Positions 5,061-30,878 of a stretch of DNA of 30,878 nt are shown here, in pieces. Origin of the DNA: a virus (lineage: Duplodnaviria > Heunggongvirae > Uroviricota > Caudoviricetes); IMG/VR virus record IMGVR_UViG_2534682158_000010, positions 1-30,878 of that record; one strand, given 5' to 3'. Made by a program: the position numbers and the translations under genes. Each line of letters starts with the position of its first letter. Position 1 is the first letter of the stretch. The notes under the pieces were generated by a model. That model made no database searches. It was given only the letters and a program-made list of their open reading frames with translations, and was not told where the DNA came from.

Positions 5061-8000
5061 TTATGCGTATTGTTGGATGACGGCCAGAACGTCCGCCACG
5101 TTGTGTTTTGTCTCGATAATCCACCAGTTACCTGGGAAGTCGCTGTTCTTCGCCTTCGCTGGCAACCAGCGAGCGCCGAATTTCGCCTTGATTGCGTCTT
5201 TCGCACGGAAAAGAACCCCTTTCATGCCGGAGGCTTCCTGAAGCCCAAATACCTCGCCAGCGGCGAATTTTGGTGCGTACATCATCTTCAGGTCGGCGGT
5301 GGATACGCGATAATTCAGACCAAGAGACTGAGCTATGCTGGTGGCATCACCCTGTATTGATGATAACTCTTCTTGTTTCTCGTTTCTGGCAGCAATTTCT
5401 TCCTCCGTGATGTTGCCAAGGGCCAGGTTTATCCGATCAGCGTCTGCCTGTTTCTCTTCATCGGTGCGCCCGGCAAGTACCGTGTTAATTCTGTGCAATA
5501 TCTCCACATGATTCTTGCGCATGCTGAGCAATTCCGGCGTAACCTCGTTAAGGTCCACCAGCCCAAGGATGGCAAGGTCGGTAAACATTGATACCAGGTT
5601 GTAGGTCATGCGATAGCTGAGTTGCCCATAGGCTGATGGCAACTGCACCGCATCCATTTTATAGGCATCCATAAATTTAGAGCCGTCGTTTACGACATCC
5701 GCAATTGCCGGTGTGATTTTTCCTGTGGTGGCGGCCTCCCTGATTGCTGTTACCCACGATTGAGTCAGCGCGGCGACTGCATGATTCAGATTGACTTTCC
5801 GTTCTGCTGCAATGCGCGCGCTTGCTGCGTCCATTGCCTGCTTGATCTCGTCTTTATTGCTGTAAATGCCAATGGTGCCAAACTGTGCTGTGGTGATCTC
5901 ATAATCTGACGCCCGGAACTCATTGGTACCGAAAATGGCATTGGTGACTTCAAGTTCAGAATCCCCGTTACGAGTAGCCCCCTGGCTTGTTTTCTCCGGC
6001 ATTCTGGCGATCGCATCCGCTATTTTCTCCTGAATTGCTTCAGGGGATAGCGTATCTCCGTATGACGCGATTACATCGCCATAATTGGAGCCAAACAGTT
6101 CAACCAGGAATGCTTCTGCCGAACGGATCTGGCGGTTATTCCCTTCCGACATCATACCAAGCACCCATTTTGCAATTGACGACTTCAGCGCGCCGTCACG
6201 GCGATCCGGGTAAACCGCATGCTTCAGTGGGTCCGTATAGGTACCAACAAAATCAATGCTATAGCCTGACTCTGTAGTCTGAACGCCGTATGAGTCAGTG
6301 ATTTTGATCATGCCGCGCTGCTGGAAACGGTAGAAATCGTCACAGGAAACGATGTCGTTAATCCCGGCGATGGAGACGCCACCACTGATTTTCTGCATAA
6401 CAGCATCTTCATCGGGAGTTACATCAACCTGTTTATCCAGCGTCTTCACATCCCAGTTACCAGATTTGGTGCCTTTGAAGGTGAAGATGATCTCCACGTC
6501 TGCGCGCTGGCTGTCGAAGTCCAGCGACTTAATGCGAACGATATCACCGGCACAATCGTAGTATTGGCCTACACGCCATGAGCGATCGCCGATAACAAGG
6601 AACTCACTCGCATGGTTAACCAGGTCAGGATCAACATCCAGAATGCCTTTATTTAATGCATCCTCCACCAGCGGGCGCAGGCGTTTGATATCCGTCGCGG
6701 CCTTCTGAGTACGGTTCAATAATTTCTCATAGCGGGAGATGGCTTGAGAGATATTAGCCTTGCGCTGAATGGCGCTTTTCAACGACGCGCGATACTGTGC
6801 TAACAACATACGGTCTGTGTGATGGACGCTACCCCAGCGGGCTTTCCAGTCTGCGTTATCAGCTGCTTTGGCCATTACCGCCTGTTTGAATTTGGCGACG
6901 TCGGCGGTGGTCTTTTCAAGTTCCGCTTTGCTTCGCTCCAATTCAGCGGTAAGTACCTCCACATCCTCACCAGCTGCGTGCTGCGCCTTGATGTAGTTCT
7001 GAAGGTCGATAGTAGCCTGTTCTTTCTGGCGAGCGCGTTTCGCAGCTTTCGCCTTATCCATTTGAACCTGCATCATTGCCAGACGTTCGCCGTCATCCTT
7101 CGCGGTATACATCTGCATTTCGATCATATCGTTGGCGTCGGCGTTCTCCATTTCTGACTTATCTGAACGGAGGATATCGGAGATCCAGCCTGCTTTACGC
7201 TTCAGCGTCTTCAGTCGGTATTCATCGAAAGACCCCTTGCCGCAGTAGTAGTGAACGCGAACGCTTGCACGGTTGGAGCCAACTCGGGCACCGCGACCGT
7301 TTCGTTGCGCAATACTGGCTGGAGTCCATGGCAACGTCAGATGATGGATGTCAGTCGTTCCTCGATGCAGGTTGATACCCACCTCTGCCTTTTTGTTGCA
7401 GATGATGATCGGAGTCCGGCCCTCCTGGAAGTCGGCTGCAATCTTTTCCAGACCGCCCAACGACATTTCATTTTGCTGCGCGATATAGGCGTCATACAGA
7501 GCCATTTGCTCGTTGTATTTCGCTATCTGTGCATCTGTTGGTTCATCCGGTAACTCTTTCGGCGGTTTAACCGCTTTCAGTTTCTTACCGGTTTTACCTG
7601 CCTCGGCAACCGTCTGAGCATTCAGTATCCCCACCTTTGAAGGTTCAAGGTTAAGAGCATTGCAGATAATGCGCTTGAGCTTCTGGTGCTGCGTTTTTTC
7701 ATCGGTGAAGATGATTTGCTTACCTTCCGGGAAAAACTCCTTCAGCGTGGCAATCAGCTTCGCGTATTTGGGCGTAACGGGGTGAGTTACGGTCTGTTCG
7801 TCAATGCCAAACCTGGCCAGGCGCTTATTCACTTCCTGCTCGAACGCTTCCGGAACCTGCAACTGAATAAACTCGCCCTTATCTATCAGGGAGTATTGCG
7901 ATTGCTGCGTGATTGAATCATCACTGTCGTCGTCTTCGCTGGTGGCTTGTTTAGGCAAACTGTCCGCCAGCTGCTGCACCGCATCGGCGTACTCCGGCAG

Positions 8001-21492: not shown

Positions 21493-23408
21493 GCCGCTAC
21501 CCCCGCTTTCTGGATTGCTACCAGCAGATCAGCCAAGTGGCGAGCAGCGCCATTAACCAGCTCTTCGTTTTCCTCAAAACGCCCGGCAGCCTGAAGGGCT
21601 GCAATCGCTTCCCGGACATTACCCCGGGCGTTACGGATCTCCGCCATGTCAGTGCTTTGCATATCCATCACGTTATTGAGATATTCAATGGCTTTATTAG
21701 CCTCTGCATCTGCTTCGCTAACCGTTTCATCAGGCTGTGCCGGGGCAGGTTCTGGCTGAGTAATCTCACCGACTTCGGCCTGCAATGCATTGATCATGCT
21801 CTGCACCATTTTCTCGGTGCCAGCGCCCCCCGGAAACGCAATATTGGGGAAAGTTTTTTGAAACTGAGTTTTCAGCATTACGCGGAACTCGTCTGGTGAG
21901 CTGGTGGCCAGCTCCAGAGCTTTTTGTGCATATTTGCCAAACGGACCATTAGTAAGTGTCTTCGCCAAGAAGTCGAAAGAATCCTCGCGAGGCAATAACT
22001 TCAGGTCGTACTCACTCATTTGCTGATCAGAAAGCGGGGTATCGTAAGTAGCAATGCCGTAGCGTGCATATTCATAATACGGGTCACCTTCATCAGGGCG
22101 CGGCAGAATTGCTTTGTTACCTTCAGGTATTGCGCCAGGGGCCGCCGGACGCATTTGCAGGGCATATCGATATGCACCTACAGAGATTTCTGGTTCAGGC
22201 GAAGAGCTACCGGTATCCTCCGCTGGTTCAGGTTCGACGTTTTCCGGTTTATGTTCTTCTGGTTGGACCAGGTATTCCGATACATTACCCGCTTTATAGG
22301 CTTTAAACAGCTTGCCGATCGCATCTGCCATGTCCACACCCTGTATGGATTTAGCCTTGATCATGTACACGCTGCCATCCGAATCGGTTAACTGGATATA
22401 CCCTTCACCGTCCTCAATGAATTGCTTCATTGATGCACCATTACTGAGCGTCACTTCCCCGTTCATATGCATACGATTTTTGATACTTGCAAGGCGATCC
22501 GTCATCGCGCGAGAGTGTCCACCAGTCATCCCCGCAGGAGCAATGGTTTCGCGCCCACCAGTTCGATTGAGCTGATCAATCTCCGTCTGCAAACGCTCAT
22601 TCTCTTCATAAAGAGAATCCGCTTCCGATGCAACAGCGTTAATTTTCTGCTCCAGATCTACCTTCTGCCCTTCTACCGCTGCCACCTGATCCGCGAGGTC
22701 GCTCATGGCATCCTCTTTCTGGTCACTGTCAGCCTGTAGTTGGGTTATTTCATCAACCAGGGCTTTTTTCTTCTTCTGCGCACGCTGGAATTTTGCCGAG
22801 TTTTTCTCTGCAAGGTTGGCAAGTTTCATGGTGACCTGCGCCAGCGTCATATCACGTCCACTCATCGGAGCAACGGTATGAGTAACGTCTTTTTTATTCA
22901 GTAAGAACTGGAAAGCAATCAGCGTATCGCTATTGGTGATCCGGTTTTCCGCTGTCGGGCTATGAAACAGAATGCTGATAGTCTGACCATCACTGAGCGG
23001 AATAATGGCTGGCAGGACCGGCAGCCCGTTAACGTTACGTGCCCGGCCAATTTCAGCCCCGCCGATCGCGCGTGCACCGTTCTGGGCCACATCCCCCGTT
23101 TTATCACTCCCCGCAGAGATTCCGGTACCATTCAGCTTCTGGTTCAATGCCCGGACAAATGCCTGCATGGTCCGGTGTAGCTGCAAACGAGTAGAACTAA
23201 TCGCCTCCAGTAAATCCGTAGCACACCAGTGGATCGGCGTGTCATAGAAGAACGTAGCCTCGATTTCCTCCAGGGTGTTGGATTCCGTCATCAGATAGCG
23301 GTCCTCACCGGCCATTAATGCGCGATATTCATCATCAGTCACTGGCGGGGGAAGCACGTCAAGCCCAGGTTTGATCGTCACCCCTTTATTGATATTGAAC
23401 TGTTCCAT
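21489..23408 (-). CDS. darA: DarA, virion-associated antirestriction protein
   Basis: 639 aa, matching P1 DarA as recalled; internal region shares the KNSAKFQ block with the upstream Hdf-like protein; AGGA SD. Confidence 0.85.
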   Translation of the reverse strand: MEQFNINKGVTIKPGLDVLPPPVTDDEYRALMAGEDRYLMTESNTLEEIEATFFYDTPIHWCATDLLEAISSTRLQLHRTMQAFVRALNQKLNGTGISAGSDKTGDVAQNGARAIGGAEIGRARNVNGLPVLPAIIPLSDGQTISILFHSPTAENRITNSDTLIAFQFLLNKKDVTHTVAPMSGRDMTLAQVTMKLANLAEKNSAKFQRAQKKKKALVDEITQLQADSDQKEDAMSDLADQVAAVEGQKVDLEQKINAVASEADSLYEENERLQTEIDQLNRTGGRETIAPAGMTGGHSRAMTDRLASIKNRMHMNGEVTLSNGASMKQFIEDGEGYIQLTDSDGSVYMIKAKSIQGVDMADAIGKLFKAYKAGNVSEYLVQPEEHKPENVEPEPAEDTGSSSPEPEISVGAYRYALQMRPAAPGAIPEGNKAILPRPDEGDPYYEYARYGIATYDTPLSDQQMSEYDLKLLPREDSFDFLAKTLTNGPFGKYAQKALELATSSPDEFRVMLKTQFQKTFPNIAFPGGAGTEKMVQSMINALQAEVGEITQPEPAPAQPDETVSEADAEANKAIEYLNNVMDMQSTDMAEIRNARGNVREAIAALQAAGRFEENEELVNGAARHLADLLVAIQKAGVAA

Positions 23409-23409
23409 G

Positions 23410-24012
23410 TTAATTTCCTGCTTTCAGTTGCTTAAGACGGCGTTTGAGTTCGCCATTTCGGGCCTTTTCGTTATTGAGTCGGCCTGTCTCCTTATCCAGC
23501 TTCGCCCGCAAATCAGTGATCTGCTGTTGATTGAAAGACACCGAGTTCTGCGCTGATTTATAAGCGGCAACCACCTGAGCATTCCGCTGTTTTGCCTCTT
23601 GCAGGCGCTGAAAGTTGGATTTTACTGCCGGTTTCTTGTCTACCGGATTGGCAACACGTTTCGCTTTGGCGATCAGTGATTTCTGGAATTTTGCGGAGTT
23701 TTTGCGGGCCGCTTGCCCCATGACGGTACCAAGCGTCTTGATATCCGGCGACTGAGCGTTAGGAATAGCTTTTCCATTCAGCCTCACAGACGATATATCG
23801 CCAGTATCGTTTACCTGTATGGCAAGAATTTGTCCGTCGTTAAGAACCAGCTTTGCGGTTTTAACTTTAACGCCATCTTTCGTTGTTGCGCGGTTGCTGG
23901 AGTCAACCTCAATTACCGTAACACCGGTTTTATTGATCGCCGCGATAAGGGATTTCAGCCCCTTTTCATTAACCTGGTCAAAATCGACCGTTGCATACTT
24001 ATTTTTCGTCAT
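23410..24012 (-). CDS. hdf: Hdf (homologue of a DarA fragment)
   Basis: Directly visible similarity to an internal DarA segment (GQILAIQ / GQTISIL and KNSAKFQ); ATG 24012 with AGGA SD preferred over ATG 24021. Confidence 0.8.
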   Translation of the reverse strand: MTKNKYATVDFDQVNEKGLKSLIAAINKTGVTVIEVDSSNRATTKDGVKVKTAKLVLNDGQILAIQVNDTGDISSVRLNGKAIPNAQSPDIKTLGTVMGQAARKNSAKFQKSLIAKAKRVANPVDKKPAVKSNFQRLQEAKQRNAQVVAAYKSAQNSVSFNQQQITDLRAKLDKETGRLNNEKARNGELKRRLKQLKAGN

Positions 24013-24442
24013 CTGACACATCCTGTGCGAGATTTATTACGTAACTTCTGCGGATTTGCTGAGTAACAGGGAAAATCCGATACAACGGGTTAATGAACGA
24101 GTCGCCATGCGTAACCATGACGTTGAAATGCCACAGTCGCTCTCCTTTACCCATATATTCAGTGGGTATGTACAACCATTCACTGTTTTCGCCCTGTTCA
24201 GCCGACGTCAAACAACGTTGTTCGCCTTCAATCACTGTCGTCGGCTTCTGAACATCGCGGATCCAATATCTGACCGTTGCGCCGCGCAAAAACGGGAATT
24301 TAGACCGGTATTTGAACGGCACCCGGATGAAACCCGGTTTAATTTCCACATCACCAAGTTCTAAATGCGTGATGTCCTTGCGTTTTAGCAAATAGCGATC
24401 GGCTAAGGCTAACGCAAGAACGCATACACCCCAGCCAATCAT
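23999..24442 (-). CDS. lydB: LydB-like lysis regulator (antiholin)
   Basis: 147 aa; ATGA overlap with lydA stop; position between the holin-like gene and hdf. Confidence 0.7.
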   Translation of the reverse strand: MIGWGVCVLALALADRYLLKRKDITHLELGDVEIKPGFIRVPFKYRSKFPFLRGATVRYWIRDVQKPTTVIEGEQRCLTSAEQGENSEWLYIPTEYMGKGERLWHFNVMVTHGDSFINPLYRIFPVTQQIRRSYVINLAQDVSDDEK

Positions 24443-24768
24443 TTCCCGCCTCCCTTTTTCACCAAACTTGTAAGAACATTCAGAATGCTATCGATATTCA
24501 CTCGTTTCATCCCTGAAATCACCTCATGACCGTTATTGCTGGCTATCGTTACCATTAAGTACGTAATTGATAACTCCCAGCCCTCGTGTTGCCCCAATAG
24601 GTACGCCACCGCGCCAGCTGTCACTGCAACAAAGATCTCCGTAACCAATCCCAACAAATTGCCAGACTGGCGACCGTCTCGGACATCCATCAGGAACGTG
24701 CCTATCCCACCAATTACTGAAAGCAGGAGCGCAATAGCAACTGGAGCTAATTCCTGTGTGTCAAGCAC
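24439..24768 (-). CDS. lydA: LydA-like holin
   Basis: 109 aa with hydrophobic transmembrane segments (VAIALLLSVIGGIGTFL, IFVAVTAGAVAYLL) and charged C-terminus; GTG start with AGGAGG SD. Confidence 0.8.
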   Translation of the reverse strand: MLDTQELAPVAIALLLSVIGGIGTFLMDVRDGRQSGNLLGLVTEIFVAVTAGAVAYLLGQHEGWELSITYLMVTIASNNGHEVISGMKRVNIDSILNVLTSLVKKGGGK

Positions 24769-24842
24769 AAGTTCCCTCCTACGTTGTCAGGAGGTAATGG
24801 TATGCAAAGTAACTTCTCAACCGGTTATGTTGCATAAGAGAC

Positions 24843-25106
24843 TTACCTATTCAACCGACTTTTGGAACCTTCAATAATAAGCCTGCTATTGGCGCTGAAA
24901 ATAAGAACCATGCAGCTCTGAAGGCTTTCATTCATGTCCTTATATTCCGCGAGATACATGCCAATAAAGCCAGCAAGTACGGCGGAAATACATTCGGCCA
25001 GCAATTTCTTGCATGAAGACTCGTAACGGTTTTCACATAGCCCACTCAAATACGAATACACCCCACCAAGAAGGGATAACATCACGATATGTACATAAAA
25101 TGTCAT
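24843..25106 (-). CDS. Hypothetical small membrane protein (87 aa) upstream of the holin
   Basis: AGGT SD at 5 nt; two hydrophobic segments; possibly a further lysis-cluster gene. Confidence 0.4.
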   Translation of the reverse strand: MTFYVHIVMLSLLGGVYSYLSGLCENRYESSCKKLLAECISAVLAGFIGMYLAEYKDMNESLQSCMVLIFSANSRLIIEGSKSRLNR

Positions 25107-25233
25107 TTTTTACCTATACAACAGTAAGTTGAACAACATTTGAGAACGGTATGCACTTTGTGATTTCCACACACACTGGTTTTGTTAATTAAAACCTGTA
25201 GCTTGCAATAAATAACGATAGTGGGCAGAAAAT

Positions 25234-25420
25234 ATGCTAATAGGCTATGTACGCATATAGACAAATGAACAAAACACAGCTATGCAGTGAAAAGCACTTG
25301 AAAGCGCAGGATGTGAGCTAATTTTTGCGAATAAGGCGAGCAGCAAAAAAGCTGGGCACCCTGGGTTAAAAAAGGTTCTGCGTATGCTTTCCAGAGGTGA
25401 TACCCTAGTCTCGGACTAGG
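25234..25420 (+). pseudogene. Decayed 5' remnant of a Cin/Gin-family serine invertase gene
   Basis: Translates to MLIGYVRI*TNEQNTAMQ*KALESAGCELIFANKASSKKAGHPGLKKVLRMLSRGDTLV with in-frame stops; the catalytic serine codon is replaced by a stop; homology ends near 25420. Confidence 0.6.
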
Positions 25421-25541: not shown

Positions 25542-26114
25542 TTACAGCTCAGATTGAGTTTGGCGCTTCTCTACAGGATGATAACGATAAATCGTCGATA
25601 CACCGATATCGTAAATAATTGCCAACTGTTTCCTGCTGTAGCCATTTTCGATCAACCTCGCTATTTGCTCATGTTGTTCTTTTGTCAACTTCGGGCGACG
25701 TCCGCCAATGCGTCCCTGTTCGCGTGCAGCTGCCAGTCCGGCCAGTGTTCTCTCAACAATTAATTCACGTTCCATTTCTGCTAAAGCACCCATGACATGA
25801 AAAAAGAAACGCCCCATGGGTGTTGATGTGTCAATACTGTCTGTCAGACTACGGAAATTAACACCTTTTTCCCGCAACTCCTCTATAAGCGTGATAAGGT
25901 GTTTCATACTTCTGCCAAGCCTATCCAGCTTCCAGACAACCAGCGTATCTCCTTCTGATAACGTTCTGAGCAGCTTTTTCAAGCCTGGTCTGGCTGACTT
26001 TGTTCCGCTTATTTTATCTTCAAAAATCAGTTCACATCCTGCGCAGTTCAGTGCATTTCTTTGTAAATCTGTGTTTTGGTCATTTGTTGACACACGAATG
26101 TAGCCAATTTGCAT
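25542..26114 (-). CDS. Gin/Cin/Min-family serine DNA invertase
   Basis: 190 aa from ATG 26114 (AGAGG SD); catalytic motif IGYIRVSTNDQ, conserved core VVWKLDRLGRSMKHL...SLTDSIDTSTPMGRFFFHVMGALAEMERELIVERT, C-terminal HTH. Confidence 0.93.
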   Translation of the reverse strand: MQIGYIRVSTNDQNTDLQRNALNCAGCELIFEDKISGTKSARPGLKKLLRTLSEGDTLVVWKLDRLGRSMKHLITLIEELREKGVNFRSLTDSIDTSTPMGRFFFHVMGALAEMERELIVERTLAGLAAAREQGRIGGRRPKLTKEQHEQIARLIENGYSRKQLAIIYDIGVSTIYRYHPVEKRQTQSEL

Positions 26115-26168
26115 GAAAAACAACCTCTTTGTTTAGTTAAAAATACATCGTTGGTATAGGTAGGGATT

Positions 26169-26194
26169 AAGACTAAAACGTTGGTTTGGGGGAA
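26169..26194 (+). other. Invertase crossover site s1 (26 bp), at the 5' end of cassette B'
   Basis: AAGACTAAAACG-TT-GGTTTGGGGGAA; fits the Gin-family 12-2-12 architecture. Confidence 0.7.
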
Positions 26195-26653
26195 GGCTCA
26201 GCATTGCCCGTTGGCGTGCCCGTTCCGTGGCCCTTAGAAACACCACCAACGGGCTGGCTGAAATGCAATGGTGCAGCATTTTCTTCTGAAAAGTATCCAA
26301 ATCTGGCAAAGGTTTACCCCACCAATAAATTGCCGGATTTACGCGGTGAGTTTATTCGCGGCTGGGATGATGGGCGGGGGATTGACTCTGGCCGTAATTT
26401 ATTATCTGCACAGAATGATGCAATTCAGAATATTGTTGGTTCTTTCGGGCGTACTCAGCTTTTTAGAGATGTACTTAGTTCAGGGCCATTTAGTCAACAT
26501 GGTCAAGTATTATCTACAGGCCTAAAGGAAACGGAAATTATTGAGGGTTATGGCGCTTATAACTGGACATTCGACGCCTCTCGCTCAGTTCGTACAGCAT
26601 CTGAAACCCGCCCACGCAACATTGCGTTTAATTACATCGTAAGGGCAGCATGA
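26186..26653 (+). CDS. Silent tail-fibre C-terminal cassette B' (tail-collar domain)
   Basis: No genuine start (in-frame with the crossover site); conserved N-terminal GEGSALPVGVPVPWP...LPDLRGEFIRGWDDGRG and C-terminal RPRNIAFNYIVRAA. Confidence 0.75.
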   Translation: MGEGSALPVGVPVPWPLETPPTGWLKCNGAAFSSEKYPNLAKVYPTNKLPDLRGEFIRGWDDGRGIDSGRNLLSAQNDAIQNIVGSFGRTQLFRDVLSSGPFSQHGQVLSTGLKETEIIEGYGAYNWTFDASRSVRTASETRPRNIAFNYIVRAA

Positions 26654-26672
26654 AAACGTTGGTTTGGGGGAA
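26647..26672 (+). other. Invertase crossover site s2
   Basis: AGCATGAAAACG-TT-GGTTTGGGGGAA; spans the stop codon of cassette B'. Confidence 0.7.
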
Positions 26673-27167
26673 GGCTCGGCGCTGCCCGTTGGCGTGCCTG
26701 TTCCATGGCCCTCAGCCACACCGCCAACGGGGTGGCTGAAATGTAACGGAGCAGCATTTTCTTCTGAAAAGTACCCAAATCTGGCAAAGGTTTACCCAAC
26801 GTTAAAATTACCTGATTTACGCGGTGAGTTTATCCGTGGTTGGGATGATTCGAGAGGGATTGATACAGGGCGTTCATTGCTAAGTGGTCAGACTGCAACA
26901 TTTATTCGTACAGCTTTGCAGGATTATTACGGTGTCGATCTGACTACTAATGTCAAAGTAGGTATCGCTTATGCTACTGCTGATTCTGTTATAACTGTTG
27001 GAAACCCTGCTAATCCTAAAGCAGGAGATAATAGCGATTATGTTCCAGCATCAGCAGATAACTCCATAACAGGCACTCAAAGGACGGCAGAGGATAATTT
27101 TACCGGGGCATGGATATCAATGCGCCCCCGCAACGTTGCTTTTAATTACATTGTAAGGGCCACATAA
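26664..27167 (+). CDS. Silent tail-fibre C-terminal cassette E
   Basis: Same conserved ends, unique central region (QTATFIRTALQDYYGVDLTTNVKVGIAYATADS...). Confidence 0.75.
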   Translation: MGEGSALPVGVPVPWPSATPPTGWLKCNGAAFSSEKYPNLAKVYPTLKLPDLRGEFIRGWDDSRGIDTGRSLLSGQTATFIRTALQDYYGVDLTTNVKVGIAYATADSVITVGNPANPKAGDNSDYVPASADNSITGTQRTAEDNFTGAWISMRPRNVAFNYIVRAT

Positions 27168-27186
27168 AAACGTTGGTTTAGGGGAA
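27161..27186 (+). other. Invertase crossover site s3
   Basis: CACATAAAAACG-TT-GGTTTAGGGGAA. Confidence 0.7.
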
Positions 27187-27207
27187 GGCTCGGCGCTGCC
27201 CGTTGGC

Positions 27208-27675
27208 GTGCCTGTTCCATGGCCCTCAGCCACACCTCCAACGGGGTGGCTGAAATGCAATGGTGCAGCATTTTCTTCTGAAAAGTACCCAAATCTGGCA
27301 AAGGTTTACCCAACGTTAAAATTACCTGATTTACGCGGTGAGTTTATCCGTGGTTGGGATGATGGGCGAGGGATTGACTCTGGTCGCTCTATTTTAAGCG
27401 AGCAAGGATATGCAACGGAGGATCATGCTCACGGATTACCGTCAAAATCAACCGTAGCAACTGACCGCTCAATTAATTTCTACTTTGACGAGGCATGGGC
27501 TACTAGTGGTAATACGGGAGTTATCAGATGGGGGAACACAAGCGATGCAGGATTGCCAGCCCCTAATTATGGAACTTTTAAAACATATAAACAGTCCGTA
27601 GCTAATTTAGGTACTGCTGGCTTAGAAACCCGCCCTCGTAATGTTGCATTTAATTATATTGTGAGGGCGGATTAA
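27208..27675 (+). CDS. Silent tail-fibre C-terminal cassette D
   Basis: Open frame actually begins at the crossover site near 27175; unique central region (GYATEDHAHGLPSKSTVATDRSINFYFDEAW...). Confidence 0.75.
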   Translation: MPVPWPSATPPTGWLKCNGAAFSSEKYPNLAKVYPTLKLPDLRGEFIRGWDDGRGIDSGRSILSEQGYATEDHAHGLPSKSTVATDRSINFYFDEAWATSGNTGVIRWGNTSDAGLPAPNYGTFKTYKQSVANLGTAGLETRPRNVAFNYIVRAD

Positions 27676-27680
27676 TTATA

Positions 27681-28292
27681 TCAACTGGCTGTAGAAAGTT
27701 GTTTTTCAGGCCAGTTGAGATCTGGTGCCGTGGTTAAATCCATCGCGTTCAGCTCGTCTATATAATCTAGCACGGAGTTAAGCTGTGTGGTTTCTGCCTG
27801 CGTCAACTTCCGTCCAGCCTGTAATTTCAACTGAATCAGACTAATGGAAGCCATCGCAGTATCAATCAATGACTGACGTTTTGTTTCTGCTGCCTCTACA
27901 GCTGCACTATGTTGAGCCTCAGTATCAACCACCCATTTCTCTCCATCCCATTTGTCGTATGGTGTTAGCGGGGCGATAGTGGTTGTATTTTCCGGATAGT
28001 CACCCAACACCGTGATTTCTTCGGGATTCCCAGTGTCAATGCTATAGACAGTTTCGCCACGATGATCTGGCACATACTCCCATGAACTTAAATCCTCTGA
28101 ACGGAGAATCGCATAACCTGCTTTATGTGAGCCTGGAGCATCCAAACAAGAATTTGCCGGAATACCAACGCCAACAGCAAGATATTCAGTTGATGCAGAA
28201 ATATATTCCCGATTACCACCATCATAGTTATAAACGATAATGTTTCCTGCCTGTATGGCTATAAGTTCGCTATTTAATATCGCATTATCCAT
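27681..28292 (-). CDS. Tail fibre assembly protein (Tfa / U-like chaperone)
   Basis: 203 aa; C-terminal region LIDTAMASISLIQLKLQAGRKLTQAETTQLNSVLDYIDELNAMDLT typical of Tfa proteins; start overlaps cassette C stop (TAATG). Confidence 0.85.
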   Translation of the reverse strand: MDNAILNSELIAIQAGNIIVYNYDGGNREYISASTEYLAVGVGIPANSCLDAPGSHKAGYAILRSEDLSSWEYVPDHRGETVYSIDTGNPEEITVLGDYPENTTTIAPLTPYDKWDGEKWVVDTEAQHSAAVEAAETKRQSLIDTAMASISLIQLKLQAGRKLTQAETTQLNSVLDYIDELNAMDLTTAPDLNWPEKQLSTAS

Positions 28293-28750
28293 TATGCTGC
28301 TCTCACAATATAATTGAAGGCAATGTTACGTGGGCGGGTTTCATTCCCCCCAGATAACTCCGTTCTGTATTGACTGGTAAATTTACCATTAATCGCTCCT
28401 TCTTGGACGGCGTTATCTGTCGACAACAGACTATCCCCCCCTCTGTCATTTGGCACCAATACCGTGTTATCCCACGCGTCCCATGACCGAATATTATGAT
28501 AATGACTTCCTGTTAACCACCCCTGTATGCTTAAGATGCCCCTTCCCGCATCCACACCTCGCCCATCATCCCAACCACGGATAAACTCACCGCGTAAATC
28601 AGGTAATTTTAACGTTGGGTAAACCTTTGCCAGATTTGGGTACTTTTCAGAAGAAAATGCTGCTCCGTTACATTTCAGCCACCCCGTTGGTGGTGTGGCT
28701 GAGGGCCACGGAACAGGCACGCCAACGGGCAGTGCCGAGCCTTCCCCCAA
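28292..28750 (-). CDS. Silent tail-fibre C-terminal cassette C, translationally coupled to Tfa
   Basis: Conserved ends; unique centre (GWLTGSHYHNIRSWDAWDNTVLVPNDRGG...). Confidence 0.75.
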   Translation of the reverse strand: MGEGSALPVGVPVPWPSATPPTGWLKCNGAAFSSEKYPNLAKVYPTLKLPDLRGEFIRGWDDGRGVDAGRGILSIQGWLTGSHYHNIRSWDAWDNTVLVPNDRGGDSLLSTDNAVQEGAINGKFTSQYRTELSGGNETRPRNIAFNYIVRAA

Positions 28751-28767
28751 ACCAACGTTTTCATGCT
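28742..28767 (-). other. Invertase crossover site s4
   Basis: Plus strand reads TTCCCCCAAACC-AA-CGTTTTCATGCT. Confidence 0.7.
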
Positions 28768-29267
28768 GCCCTTACGATGTAATTAAACGCAATGTTGCGT
28801 GGGCGGTTTTCGTTTGCAGTTGGAACAATTTTTGAAGCATCAAGGCCAATCACTTTTGGGTAAACAGCGCCGTCTGTCCTTTCTGTCACCATACTTCTGA
28901 CTAAGGAAAAATAACTATTGTTTGTTGAGGGAGTTAAAGGCACCACTGCCCCCTTAAACGAGCCTACTGATTCCCATATTGAATAATTTTCAGTATTTAC
29001 AGTCTTGAACTCACCATAGATATTACGTATGGCATCACCTTGAGCGGATAATATTGTTCTCCCCGCATCCACACCACGTCCGTCATCCCAGCCGCGAATA
29101 AACTCACCGCGTAAATCCGGTAATTTATTGGTGGGATAAGCCTTTGCCAGTTCTGGGTATTCTTCAGCAGAAAAAGCTGCTCCGTTGCATTTTAGCCAGC
29201 CTGTTGGCGGAGTGGCTGAGGGCCATGGAACAGGTACGCCAACAGGCAATGCTGAGCCTTCCCCCAA
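28761..29267 (-). CDS. Silent tail-fibre C-terminal cassette A' (near-identical copy of A)
   Basis: 168 aa; differs from cassette 29756..30262 at 2 residues. Confidence 0.75.
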   Translation of the reverse strand: MGEGSALPVGVPVPWPSATPPTGWLKCNGAAFSAEEYPELAKAYPTNKLPDLRGEFIRGWDDGRGVDAGRTILSAQGDAIRNIYGEFKTVNTENYSIWESVGSFKGAVVPLTPSTNNSYFSLVRSMVTERTDGAVYPKVIGLDASKIVPTANENRPRNIAFNYIVRAA

Positions 29268-29284
29268 ACCAACGTTTTCATGCT
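29259..29284 (-). other. Invertase crossover site s5
   Basis: TTCCCCCAAACC-AA-CGTTTTCATGCT. Confidence 0.7.
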
Positions 29285-29745
29285 GCCCTTACGATGTAAT
29301 TAAACGCAATGTTATGGGGGCGTGTTTCAGATGCTGTGCGAACTGAGCGAGAGGCGTCGAATGTCCATACAGAAGCACCATATCCTTCAATGATCTCAGT
29401 TGGTTGTAAGCCTACTGATAATATAGAGTCAGTTTGACTAAATGGTCCTGAATTAAGCGCATCTTTAAAAAGCTGAGTACGCCCAAAAGTGCCAACTATA
29501 TTCTGAATAGCGTCAGACTGTGCAGACAGTAGGTTGCGCCCATTATCAACGCCCCGTCCGTCATCCCAGCCGCGAATAAATTCGCCCCGTAAATCCGGTA
29601 ATTTATTGGTGGGGTAGGCCTTTGCCAGATTGGGGTACATTTCAGAAGAAAATGCTGCACCGTTACATTTCAGCCACCCCGTTGGCGGCGTGGCTGAGGG
29701 CCATGGAACGGGCACACCAACGGGCAGTGCAGAGCCTTCCCCCAA
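29278..29745 (-). CDS. Silent tail-fibre C-terminal cassette B
   Basis: 155 aa; divergent paralogue of B' (26186..26653); C-terminal motif carries H in place of R (ETRPHNIAFNYIVRAA). Confidence 0.75.
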   Translation of the reverse strand: MGEGSALPVGVPVPWPSATPPTGWLKCNGAAFSSEMYPNLAKAYPTNKLPDLRGEFIRGWDDGRGVDNGRNLLSAQSDAIQNIVGTFGRTQLFKDALNSGPFSQTDSILSVGLQPTEIIEGYGASVWTFDASRSVRTASETRPHNIAFNYIVRAA

Positions 29746-29762
29746 ACCAACGTTTTCATGCT
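29737..29762 (-). other. Invertase crossover site s6
   Basis: TTCCCCCAAACC-AA-CGTTTTCATGCT. Confidence 0.7.
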
Positions 29763-30262
29763 GCCCTTACGATGTAATTAAACGCAATGTTGCGTGGGCG
29801 GTTTTCGTTTGCAGTTGGAACAATTTTTGAAGCATCAAGGCCAATCACTTTTGGGTAAACAGCGCCGTCTGTCCTTTCTGTCACCATACTTCTGACTAAG
29901 GAAAAATAACTATTGTTTGTTGAGGGATTTAAAGGCACCACTGCCCCCTTAAACGAGCCTACTGATTCCCATATTGAATAATTTTCAGTATTTACAGTCT
30001 TGAACTCACCATAGATATTACGTATGGCATCACCTTGAGCGGATAATATTGTTCTCCCCGCATCCACACCACGTCCGTCATCCCAGCCGCGAATAAACTC
30101 ACCGCGTAAATCCGGTAATTTATCGGTGGGATAAGCCTTTGCCAGTTCTGGGTATTCTTCAGCAGAAAAAGCTGCTCCGTTGCATTTTAGCCAGCCTGTT
30201 GGCGGAGTGGCTGAGGGCCACGGAACAGGTACGCCAACAGGCAATGCTGAGCCTTCCCCCAA
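29756..30262 (-). CDS. Silent tail-fibre C-terminal cassette A
   Basis: 168 aa; conserved ends, unique centre (GDAIRNIYGEFKTVNTENYSIWESVGSFKG...). Confidence 0.75.
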   Translation of the reverse strand: MGEGSALPVGVPVPWPSATPPTGWLKCNGAAFSAEEYPELAKAYPTDKLPDLRGEFIRGWDDGRGVDAGRTILSAQGDAIRNIYGEFKTVNTENYSIWESVGSFKGAVVPLNPSTNNSYFSLVRSMVTERTDGAVYPKVIGLDASKIVPTANENRPRNIAFNYIVRAA

Positions 30263-30279
30263 ACCAACGTTTTCATGCT
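30254..30279 (-). other. Invertase crossover site s7
   Basis: TTCCCCCAAACC-AA-CGTTTTCATGCT. Confidence 0.7.
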
Positions 30280-30878
30280 GCCCTTACGATGTAATTAAAT
30301 GCGATATTTCGCGGCCTGACAGCAACAAAATTTATACCATCACCTACAGAGTTACTGGTGAAATTAAATCGTGAAAATCCTGGCTGATTTCCGACGATGC
30401 CATCATGAAAATTAATTGCGTGCCCCGCACCATCACCTATATTTCCGGCACGCTGAGAAAAGTTTGTAGCCTCTTGGCTGCTTAATAATGCTCGCCCATT
30501 GTCCACACCTCGTCCATCATCCCAACCTCGAATAAATTCGCCCCGTAGATCCGGCAATTTATTGGTGGGGTAAACCTTTGCCAGATTTGGGTACTTTTCA
30601 GAAGAAAATGCTGCTCCGTTACATTTCAGCCACCCCGTTGGCGGTGTGGCTGAGGGCCACGGAACAGGCACACCAACGGGCAGCGCCGAGCCTTCTCCTA
30701 AACCAAGGTAATCAAGAACGCTCTGAATACTGGTCTTACCAAGAATGGCGCGTCCAACACTTGTCAATGCAGTTAACGCGGCACGATCAACACCTGTGAA
30801 ATAAGGGAGTTTATCTGCTGCTGTAGCTAGTGCCGCTAGGGCAGTGAGCGTAGCGTCTGCCGCTTGCTTTCCATTAGC
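30273..30878 (-). CDS. Tail fibre protein S, 3' portion: constant part fused to the currently expressed cassette F (5' end beyond the window)
   Basis: Frame is open from the window edge (ANGKQAADATLTALAALATAADKLPYFTGVDRAALTALTSVGRAILGKTSIQSVLDYLGLGEGSALP...) through cassette F; the TTG at 30767 is not a real start. Confidence 0.85.
   Translation of the reverse strand, partial: ANGKQAADATLTALAALATAADKLPYFTGVDRAALTALTSVGRAILGKTSIQSVLDYLGLGEGSALPVGVPVPWPSATPPTGWLKCNGAAFSSEKYPNLAKVYPTNKLPDLRGEFIRGWDDGRGVDNGRALLSSQEATNFSQRAGNIGDGAGHAINFHDGIVGNQPGFSRFNFTSNSVGDGINFVAVRPRNIAFNYIVRAA
30693..30718 (-). other. Invertase crossover site s8 at the junction of the S constant part and cassette F
   Basis: TTCTCCTAAACC-AA-GGTAATCAAGAA; the best-palindromic of the eight sites. 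Confidence 0.7.

What the first reader, a model, noticed from the sequence alone, without database searches (positions are those of the whole stretch)
25542..30878. Expanded multiple-inversion tail-fibre switching module: one serine invertase, eight crossover sites, eight C-terminal cassettes
A Gin/Min-family invertase gene abuts a 4.5 kb region in which eight 26-bp crossover sites each sit at the 5' end of a promoterless tail-fibre C-terminal cassette (three on the plus strand, five on the minus strand, one currently fused to the S constant part). Every cassette shares an N-terminal tail-collar block of about 70 aa and the C-terminal block RPRNIAFNYIVRAA, with a unique centre of about 70 aa. 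Successive inversions between oppositely oriented sites could fuse S to any cassette, giving many host-range isoforms. P1 has two alternatives; the p15B Min system, as I recall, has six sites; this locus has eight, so it is probably an expanded variant of a known class.
Basis: partly seen in the sequence, partly recalled or inferred. Interest (0 to 1): 0.8.

Follow-up and report, generated by a model that had tools for sequence, protein, structure and literature searches.

The report
Min-type tail-fibre shuffling array, P1-like plasmid
This is a real DNA-inversion "shuffling" module that lets a P1-like phage-plasmid of E. coli swap the tip of its tail fibre among eight cassettes, but it is an ordinary copy of the Min system first described in plasmid p15B, and arrays this size are the commonest among the sequenced relatives sampled.

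Summary
A serine invertase gene (25542-26114, minus strand) abuts a 4.5-kb region holding exactly eight 26-bp crossover sites, three on the plus strand and five on the minus. Each site sits at the 5' end of a tail-collar cassette, and one cassette is fused in frame to the constant part of S, which runs off the window.

- The invertase is 190/190 identical to the one in many P1-like plasmids.
- The site next to the invertase equals the published p15B site mixMl''L'. The S-side half-site equals that of mixQ''R'.
- A sample of relatives carries 3, 5, 8, 8, 8, 9, 9, 9, at least 9, and 17 sites. A P2-like prophage carries 5.
- Two records of one 97,393-bp Klebsiella plasmid with the identical invertase differ only by permutation and inversion of eight 100%-identical segments, broken exactly at the site centres. 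That shows natural inversion isomers.

- Cassettes B and D differ at 3 of 517 nt, and C and F are 86% identical, so there are seven tips, not eight unique ones.
- A single tail-fibre assembly gene (27681-28292) lies in the central segment.
- A decayed cin 5' fragment lies at 25234-25410.

Verdict: a new member of a known kind, of low interest.

The parts
25542..26114 (-). min-type serine DNA invertase gene (190 aa from ATG MQIGY; the ORF listing extends it to a TTG at 26123)
   Evidence: It matches Resolvase PF00239 (E 2e-51) and HTH_7. It is 190/190 identical to the recombinase of L001, L003, L005 and L006, and 138/190 identical to P1 Cin. The exact sequence belongs to UniRef100 cluster Q05517_ECOLX, named 'DNA-invertase'.
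26025..26096 (-). putative recombinational enhancer (Fis-binding sis element) inside the 5' end of the invertase gene
   Evidence: It lies at the same offset as the annotated P1 cin enhancer and is 58/72 identical to it. The overlapping 71-nt stretch is 83.1% identical, against 70.5% for the first 420 nt of the gene. Function is inferred.
26169..26194 (+). crossover site 1 (invertase-side end of the array), head of cassette F
   Evidence: Its reverse complement, TTCCCCCAAACC AA CGTTTTAGTCTT, equals p15B mixMl''L'.
26186..26653 (+). silent cassette F (type T9)
   Evidence: Collar domain. It is 100% nt identical to a segment of p12579_1.
26647..26672 (+). crossover site 2, head of cassette G; contains the stop codon of F
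26664..27167 (+). silent cassette G (type T2)
   Evidence: Collar domain. It is 99% aa identical to a cassette of pMCR_SCKP-LL83.
27161..27186 (+). crossover site 3, head of cassette H; left end of the central 1581-bp segment
   Evidence: Its tail half CGTTTTTATGTG equals that of p15B mixN''O'.
27178..27675 (+). silent cassette H (type T4), one end of the central segment
   Evidence: Collar domain. It flanks tfa in every array examined where it is intact.
27681..28292 (-). single tail-fibre assembly (chaperone) gene inside the central segment; its start overlaps the stop of cassette E
   Evidence: Caudo_TAP PF02413, E 3e-30. It is annotated as tail fiber assembly protein in all relatives.
28292..28750 (-). 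silent cassette E (type T5), the other end of the central segment
   Evidence: Collar domain plus a weak match to S_tail_recep_bd. The whole cassette aligns to PDB 9cuy 'Short tail fiber', E 2e-17.
28742..28767 (-). crossover site 4, head of cassette E
28761..29267 (-). silent cassette D (type T3), near-duplicate of B
   Evidence: Its segment differs from B's at 3 of 517 nt.
29259..29284 (-). crossover site 5, head of cassette D
29278..29745 (-). silent cassette C (type T10), 86% aa identical to F
   Evidence: It is 100% nt identical to a segment of L001 in the opposite orientation.
29737..29762 (-). crossover site 6, head of cassette C
29756..30262 (-). silent cassette B (type T3)
   Evidence: It is 100% nt identical to a segment of p12579_1 that lies there in the opposite orientation.
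30254..30279 (-). crossover site 7, head of cassette B
30273..30701 (-). expressed cassette A (type T7), currently fused to the constant part of S
   Evidence: The ORF is continuous across the site. It is 100% aa identical to a cassette of pMCR_SCKP-LL83.
30693..30718 (-). crossover site 8 (S-side end of the array)
   Evidence: Its reverse complement is TTCTCCTAAACC AA GGTAATCAAGAA. The S-side half equals that of p15B mixQ''R'.
30706..30878 (-). 3' end of the constant part of tail-fibre gene S; the gene runs off the window (end of contig)
   Evidence: It differs by 1-2 nt from the S genes of L001, L002, L003, L005, L006, L126, L128 and L129, and has no match in P1 S.

Best explanation
The region is a Min-type multiple DNA-inversion system of a P1-like phage-plasmid. 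It belongs to the Din family of serine invertases, alongside Hin, Gin, Cin, Pin and Min.

**Expression.** The late tail-fibre operon (R-S) is transcribed from a late promoter outside the window. The constant 5' part of S ends at a 26-bp crossover site. Whatever cassette lies beyond that site supplies the last 142-168 residues of the fibre: a tail-collar domain with a variable insert that forms the receptor-binding tip.

**Recombination.** The invertase, probably helped by host Fis bound to an enhancer in the 5' end of its own gene, recombines any two sites in inverted orientation at the shared central TT/AA dinucleotide. All eight sites carry the same cassette-side half (GGTTTRGGRGAA), so every exchange keeps the reading frame (..Y-L-G-L-G-E-G..).

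**Geometry.** All cassettes point towards a central 1.58-kb segment (cassette H, then convergent tfa and cassette E). Every inversion therefore spans that segment, and this convergent arrangement is preserved.

**Reach from the present isomer (S fused to A).** Cassettes F, G and H are one inversion away. B, C, D and E are two away.

**Number of isomers.** Eight sites give 7! x 2 = 10,080 DNA isomers. They encode only eight S variants, and seven distinct tips.

**Shown:** the anatomy, site identity, frame conservation, invertase identity, and natural isomers in a sister plasmid.

**Inferred:** activity in this particular strain, Fis and enhancer dependence, and different receptor specificities of the tips.
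For: - **Sites.** There are eight sites and none elsewhere in the window; none of 100 shuffles gave a match. They fit the Din consensus and the published p15B mix sites. The invertase-side site is identical to mixMl''L', the S-side half-site is identical to that of mixQ''R', and the tail half of site 3 equals that of mixN''O'.
- **Invertase.** The gene is intact, matches Resolvase and HTH_7, and has the catalytic Ser in YIRVSTNDQ. It is 190/190 identical to the invertase of L001, L003, L005 and L006.
- **Natural isomers.** L005 (p160070-MCR) and L006 (pMCR_SCKP-LL83) are both 97,393 bp and carry that invertase. Their flanks are 3782/3782 and 2295/2295 identical. All eight inter-site segments are 100% identical but permuted and inverted, with breakpoints exactly at the site centres. 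Window segments B and C recur at 100% nt identity in the opposite orientation in p12579_1 and L001.
- **Published link to p15B.** The L006 segment was reported as 99% identical over 92% coverage to p15B min (PMC5786510).
- **Model check.** An inversion model gives 240 isomers for six sites, the figure I recall for p15B, and 10,080 for eight.
- **Promoters.** No P1 late-promoter box lies inside the array. In complete relatives the box sits upstream of R and never inside the array.
- **Enhancer.** The enhancer-equivalent stretch is 81-83% identical to P1's, against 70.5% gene-wide.
- **Cassette fold.** The cassettes are homologous to solved short-tail-fibre tips: 9cuy (E 2e-17) and the T4 gp12 C-terminus.
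Against: - There is no direct evidence of inversion in this strain. The window is a single draft contig (AFDR01000003.1) that stops 173 nt beyond the S-side site.
- The p15B sequence (X62121) and the primary Min papers could not be retrieved. Identity to Min itself therefore rests on published site sequences, a UniRef name and a proxy plasmid.
- Fis binding and the receptor specificity of the tips were not tested.
- Only one tfa gene exists. It is antisense to S in roughly half of the possible isomers, which the simple model does not explain.
Confidence: 0.9

Rival explanations
1. The array is a frozen relic. It was built by past inversions and duplications, but it no longer switches in this plasmid.
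For: Only one arrangement is seen, in a single contig. A decayed cin fragment nearby shows that recombinase genes do decay at this locus. The near-duplicate cassettes B and D could simply be passive repeats.
Against: The invertase ORF is intact and 190/190 identical to the one in plasmids with demonstrable isomers. All eight sites keep the same core and cassette-side half-site. All eight cassettes are intact ORFs.
Confidence: 0.06
2. The cassettes are independently expressed small tail proteins, as RefSeq annotates them ('phage tail protein' CDSs with TTG or GTG starts), rather than promoterless 3' gene segments.
For: Annotation pipelines call each cassette as a separate CDS. Each cassette begins with a possible TTG start codon.
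Against: The supposed TTG start lies inside the crossover site. The preceding cassette's stop is only about 10 nt upstream, with no evident ribosome-binding site. The frame is continuous with the constant part of S at the active site. No late-promoter box lies in the array, and sigma-70-like matches are no more frequent than in shuffles. Sister plasmids fuse different cassettes to S.
Confidence: 0.03
3. The order or copy number of cassettes in the contig is an assembly artefact. The culture held mixed isomers, so the true array may have fewer sites, for example B and D being one segment.
For: The contig ends 173 nt beyond the S-side site. B and D are 99.4% identical at the nucleotide level. 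PMC4134206 warns that alternative-isomer contigs can create artefactual duplications.
Against: B and D differ at three positions, and each variant recurs exactly in other records: D is 100% identical to a segment in L001, and B to one in p12579_1 and one in L002. Complete long-read plasmids show arrays of 8-9 sites with the same architecture.
Confidence: 0.08

Closest known systems
Min multiple-inversion system of plasmid p15B (E. coli 15T-; Sandmeier, Iida, Arber 1990-1992; GenBank X62121)
   Same: - Both sit on a P1-related plasmid, between the lysis genes and the R-S tail-fibre operon.
- The invertase gene points away from the array.
- The invertase-side site is identical, and so is the S-side half-site.
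- Both have a large central segment with a cassette head at each end plus several small segments of about 0.5 kb. For p15B this is inferred from the names Ml/Mr and the site coordinates in PMC3241671.
- Both carry a cin 5' relic beside min (annotation compared).
- The identity to the P1 enhancer stretch is the same 83%.
   Different: - The window has eight sites and seven segments; p15B has six sites and five segments.
- Five of the eight tail half-sites read CGTTTTCATGCT, a form absent from the six published mix sites.
- Cassette types T3 (two copies) and T10 have no close match (at most 86% aa) in the published 99%-identical proxy pMCR_SCKP-LL83.
- A direct alignment to X62121 was not possible.
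Cin/C-segment of phage P1 (also Gin/G-segment of Mu and Pin/P-segment of e14)
   Same: Same invertase family (73% aa identity to Cin), the same 26-bp site design, and an enhancer inside the 5' end of the invertase gene. All switch the C-terminal part of a tail fibre.
   Different: - P1 has two sites and one invertible segment. It carries two Sv/U pairs, each with its own chaperone.
- In P1 the invertase gene faces the segment.
- The cassettes here are short collar-type tips with no BLAST similarity to the P1 C-segment, and there is only one tfa.
Min-like arrays in other sequenced P1/P7-like phage-plasmids and P2-like prophages (for example pMCR_SCKP-LL83, p160070-MCR, p12579_1, pMTY9975_untypable1)
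   Same: The invertase is identical in the P1-like plasmids. All share the end sites, the central H-tfa-E segment, and a common pool of at least 11 cassette types.
   Different: Only the number and choice of cassettes differ. Site counts are 3, 5, 8, 8, 8, 9, 9, 9, at least 9, and 17. The window's exact combination was not found elsewhere.
R64-type shufflon (Rci, pilV) and the bifidophage Rin shufflon
   Same: The logic is the same: one constant 5' gene part, several alternative 3' cassettes, and multiple overlapping inversions.
   Different: Those systems use tyrosine recombinases and short asymmetric sites (PMC6109161). This one uses a serine invertase.

Membership tests
Min-type (Din-family) multiple DNA inversion system | A serine invertase of the Hin/Gin/Cin/Pin/Min subfamily: resolvase catalytic domain with the active-site Ser, plus a C-terminal HTH. 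| tested here: met
   It matches PF00239 (E 2e-51) and PF02796 (E 4e-15). It is 73% identical to P1 Cin and has the YIRVSTNDQ motif. It belongs to UniRef100 cluster Q05517_ECOLX, 'DNA-invertase'.
Min-type (Din-family) multiple DNA inversion system | [quoted passage not shown] | tested here: met
   There are eight sites, all with central AA/TT. The cassette-side halves are TTC(C/T)CC(C/T)AAACC. Whole sites or half-sites are identical to published mix sites.
Min-type (Din-family) multiple DNA inversion system | More than two sites, in both orientations, defining overlapping invertible segments. | tested here: met
   There are three plus-strand and five minus-strand sites. All are convergent on a central segment.
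Min-type (Din-family) multiple DNA inversion system | One constant 5' gene part joined in frame to alternative 3' parts at the sites. | tested here: met
   The ORF is continuous from cassette A through site 8 to the window end. All heads share TT GGT TTR GGR GAA GG, so the frame is kept. Only 173 nt of the constant part of S lie in the window.
Min-type (Din-family) multiple DNA inversion system | A cis-acting recombinational enhancer (Fis sites) in the 5' end of the invertase gene. | tested here: inconclusive
   The stretch at the same offset is 81-83% identical to the annotated P1 enhancer, against 70.5% for the gene as a whole. Fis binding cannot be tested with these tools.
Min-type (Din-family) multiple DNA inversion system | Inversion isomers actually occur. 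| not testable with these tools
   The window is a single contig. Isomers were shown only for sister plasmids with the identical invertase and sites.
P1 Cin / C-segment type (two-site switch) | Exactly two cix sites flanking one segment that carries Sv-U and Sv'-U' pairs. | tested here: not met
   The window has eight sites and one tfa, and no nucleotide similarity to the P1 C-segment. Only a decayed cin 5' fragment remains.
R64-type shufflon | A tyrosine recombinase (Rci) acting on sfx sites. | tested here: not met
   The recombinase belongs to the serine resolvase/invertase family.

The most novel reading that the evidence does not exclude
The array carries a single tail-fibre chaperone gene, fixed inside the central segment behind cassette E, with no late promoter of its own. 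Whenever cassette H is fused to S, and in about half of all isomers, tfa is antisense to the operon. Two outcomes are possible. Either the collar-type tips fold without Tfa, which would then be a private chaperone of cassette E. Or the orientation of the central segment acts as a second, hidden switch that decides whether functional fibres are made at all.
Probability: 0.3. Interest if true: 0.45.

Novelty: new member of a known kind. Interest (0 to 1): 0.2.

Why it matters
It matters mainly as a correction of scale. The classic six-site Min locus of p15B is at the small end of a family that is widespread:
- 139 records among 5,426 complete E. coli genomes carry this invertase gene at 99% identity or more.
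- The family draws on a shared pool of short collar-type receptor-binding cassettes, found in P1-like plasmids and in P2-like prophages.

Two practical points follow.
- Annotation pipelines label the silent cassettes as free-standing 'phage tail protein' genes.
- Assemblies of such plasmids capture only one of thousands of isomers.

For host-range engineering of P1-based delivery vectors, the cassette pool is a ready-made library. None of this changes how the system is understood to work.

Tried and rejected
- **Primary Min sources.** I tried to read the primary Min papers (PMC329034, PMC206102) and the Johnson 2015 review (PMC4384473); none is held. I tried to fetch p15B X62121 and pJIE250-3 MN510445; neither is in the collections. 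The comparison with p15B is therefore indirect. It rests on the site table in PMC3241671, the p15B cross-references in the P1 GenBank annotation, and the proxy plasmid pMCR_SCKP-LL83.
- **Promoter for the silent cassettes or tfa.** The sigma-70 scan found 8 matches against 9.9 expected. The only exact P1 late-promoter box in the window is LPdar at 24807-24815. No independent promoter is supported.
- **RNA genes.** The tRNA and Rfam scans of the window found nothing.
- **P1 C-segment reading.** Considered and rejected, because the window shares no similarity with the P1 C-segment.
- **Tyrosine-recombinase shufflon reading.** Rejected, because the recombinase is a serine invertase.
- **Literature on arrays larger than p15B's.** I found only a one-line mention of a 5-kb min-like segment. 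Surveys of P1-like plasmids list the region merely as variable.
- **Not run.** Structure prediction, because sequence matches to solved short-tail-fibre tips were sufficient.


Full report
**Where the window comes from.** The window is the complete 30,878-bp contig AFDR01000003.1 of E. coli assembly GCA_000225045.2. Positions 1-25000 are 98-99% identical over full length to hundreds of non-mobilizable plasmids of about 95 kb from E. coli, E. fergusonii and Salmonella. ORF sizes fit the P1 order cre, darB, prt, pro, then ddrB, darA, hdf, lydB, lydA, lydC. P1 29002-31836 is collinear with window 22587-25410 at 94.6%. The element is therefore a P1/P7-like phage-plasmid.

**Checking the observation.** A 19-nt pattern taken from the junctions matches exactly eight times, all between 26178 and 30709. 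None of 100 shuffles gave a match.
- Three sites lie on the plus strand (centres 26181, 26659, 27173) and five on the minus strand (28754, 29271, 29749, 30266, 30705).
- Downstream of each site, in coding orientation, is an intact reading frame of 142-168 codons.
- All eight carry the Pfam Collar domain (seven scanned, E about 1e-15; B is 99% identical to D). They share an invariant block of about 75 residues starting LGEGSALPVGVPVPWP, and end in RP(R/H)N(I/V)AFNYIVRA(A/T/D).
- The stop codon of each cassette lies inside the left half of the next site, so cassettes are packed 10 nt apart.
- The cassette at 30273-30701 reads on without a stop through site 8 to the contig end. Those last 173 nt differ by only 1-2 nt from the tail-fibre S genes of eight of the nine P1-like plasmids checked (9 nt in the ninth).
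- The invertase gene (25542-26114, minus strand) has the Resolvase and HTH_7 domains.

- Cassettes B and D differ at 3 of 517 nt, and C and F are 86% identical at the protein level. There are therefore seven distinct tips, not eight unique ones.
- The variable centres span about 53-79 residues.

**What it is.** The site table in PMC3241671 lists the six mix sites of p15B.
- The window's site next to the invertase reads TTCCCCCAAACC AA CGTTTTAGTCTT as its reverse complement. This is identical to mixMl''L'.
- The S-side half of site 8, GGTAATCAAGAA, is identical to that of mixQ''R'.
- The tail half of site 3, CGTTTTTATGTG, equals that of mixN''O'.
- All eight sites share the AA/TT centre and fit the Din consensus.

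The invertase matches known proteins as follows.
- It is 73% identical to P1 Cin.
- It is 190/190 identical to the recombinase WP_001165547.1 found in every P1-like array I fetched.
- Its exact sequence is the UniRef100 entry Q05517_ECOLX, 'DNA-invertase'. I believe this is the p15B Min entry but could not verify it.

The P1 GenBank record cross-references p15B, and two of those notes can be tested against the window.
- The enhancer stretch of cin is annotated as 83% identical to p15B nt 6463-6533. The window's equivalent stretch is 59/71 = 83.1% identical.
- P1 31570-31832, which covers the cin promoter and the first 170 nt of cin, is annotated as 89% identical to p15B nt 7147-7408, downstream of min. 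The window has exactly such a decayed cin 5' fragment at 25234-25410, with in-frame stops.

The locus is therefore organised like p15B Min. It is larger, though: eight sites and seven segments here, against six sites and five segments in p15B.

**Is it active?** This cannot be seen in one contig, but a natural experiment exists. pMCR_SCKP-LL83 (L006) was reported to carry a 5-kb segment 99% identical over 92% coverage to p15B min (PMC5786510). p160070-MCR (L005) is a second record of the same 97,393-bp Klebsiella plasmid.
- Their flanks are identical (3782/3782 and 2295/2295).
- All eight inter-site segments are 100% identical.
- Order and orientation differ, with every breakpoint exactly at a site centre.
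- Both carry the window's invertase, residue for residue.

**How it most likely works.** In complete relatives the P1 late-promoter box AAGTTACTT lies just upstream of the R homologue and never inside the array. In the window the only exact box is LPdar, upstream of lydA. The cassettes are therefore expressed only when joined to the constant part of S.

Exchange happens at the TT inside the codon CTT of ..Y-L-G-L-G-E-G... All heads share TT GGT TTR GGR GAA GG, so the frame is always kept.

All cassettes converge on the central 1581-bp segment (H, then convergent tfa and E), and this held in all twelve arrays checked. Any inversion between oppositely oriented sites spans that segment and preserves the convergent arrangement.

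A breadth-first simulation of this rule gives 240 isomers for six sites, the number I recall from the p15B literature. It gives 10,080 for eight sites. From the present isomer, F, G and H are one inversion from expression; B, C, D and E are two.

The enhancer-equivalent stretch (26025-26096) is better conserved against P1 than the gene as a whole (81-83% against 70.5%). This is consistent with a Fis-dependent enhancer, but function is inferred.

Whole cassettes align to a solved 'Short tail fiber' (9cuy, E 2e-17). Their C-terminal motif aligns to the T4 gp12 tip. This supports the view that the variable centre is the receptor-binding surface.

**How common it is.**
- 223 PLSDB plasmids and 1,908 records of complete E. 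coli genomes match the region.
- 139 E. coli records carry the invertase gene plus adjacent site at 99% identity or more.
- Site counts in fetched P1-like arrays are 3, 5, 8, 8, 8, 9, 9 (two records of one plasmid), 9, 9, at least 9, and 17. The window adds another 8. A P2-like chromosomal prophage has 5.
- A scan of IMG/VR found the site motif in more than 119 viral contigs, with up to eight copies in a row.
- Clustering 54 cassettes from six arrays gave 14 types at 90% identity, three of which appear to be frameshift artefacts in one record. Every window cassette belongs to a type seen elsewhere, and the five exact proteins looked up are on record, four of them on 155-292 contigs and one (G) only on this contig and a 1.3-kb metagenome contig.

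Eight sites is thus typical, and p15B's six is on the small side.

**Open point.** There is one tfa, its start overlaps the stop of cassette E, and it has no late promoter of its own. In isomers such as L005, L006, L129 and p12579_1 it is antisense to S. Whenever H is fused to S, tfa must be antisense. Yet H is conserved at 96-99% nucleotide identity in the arrays compared. Either these tips do not need Tfa, or the orientation of the central segment gates fibre assembly. I could not resolve this.

**Verdict.** The locus is a further member of the Min family, not a new variant in kind, and its size is ordinary for sequenced P1-like plasmids. Interest is low.

Noticed in passing
window 25234-25410 (+): This is a decayed 5' fragment of a P1-type cin gene. 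Its translation, MLIGYVRI*TNEQNTAMQ*KAL.., has stops, including one at the catalytic-Ser codon. It lies between lydC and the 3' end of the functional invertase and keeps a P1-like enhancer stretch at about 25252-25323. P1 homology ends here, which marks the left junction where the Min module replaced cin and the C-segment. The P1 GenBank annotation implies the same relic in p15B.
   Followed up: yes
window 27681-28292 (-) and the central segment 27174-28754: There is only one tail-fibre assembly gene for eight cassettes. Its start overlaps the stop of cassette E, and it has no late promoter of its own. It is necessarily antisense to S whenever cassette H is expressed, and it is found antisense in several sequenced relatives (L005, L006, L129, L134).
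   Followed up: partly
window 28755-29271 and 29750-30266: Segments D and B are near-duplicates, differing at 3 of 517 nt, and lie in direct orientation. Each variant recurs exactly in other plasmids. This suggests that arrays grow by duplication or unequal recombination between the conserved 200-bp cassette heads.
   Followed up: partly
L001 (NZ_CP135665.1 80525-92110): This array has 17 sites spanning 9 kb, with several cassette types repeated two to four times. It is either a real expansion or a long-read misassembly of a culture with mixed isomers.
   Followed up: no
L131 (NZ_AP045177.1, E. coli chromosome, 2364434-2369219): The same module occurs in a P2-like chromosomal prophage: an invertase, five sites, and a central tfa segment with collar cassettes. 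The cassette array therefore moves between unrelated myovirus backbones.
   Followed up: partly
L002 (NZ_CP148287.1) cassettes at locus 9296, 10878 and 11391: Three cassettes there are truncated or frameshifted (47, 148 and 108 aa), and several CDSs are missing from the annotation. These are probably sequencing errors in that record rather than biology.
   Followed up: no
window 30878 (contig end): The draft contig stops 173 nt beyond the S-side crossover site. This is consistent with the assembler breaking at or near the invertible or repetitive region of S, so the rest of S and the late promoter are not in the window.
   Followed up: partly
L133 (ENA ERZ17914570 NODE_4450, 1262 bp): This metagenome contig carries the exact cassette G protein. 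Its upstream neighbour is C-type (95% identity) rather than F, so it comes from a different array or isomer.
   Followed up: partly
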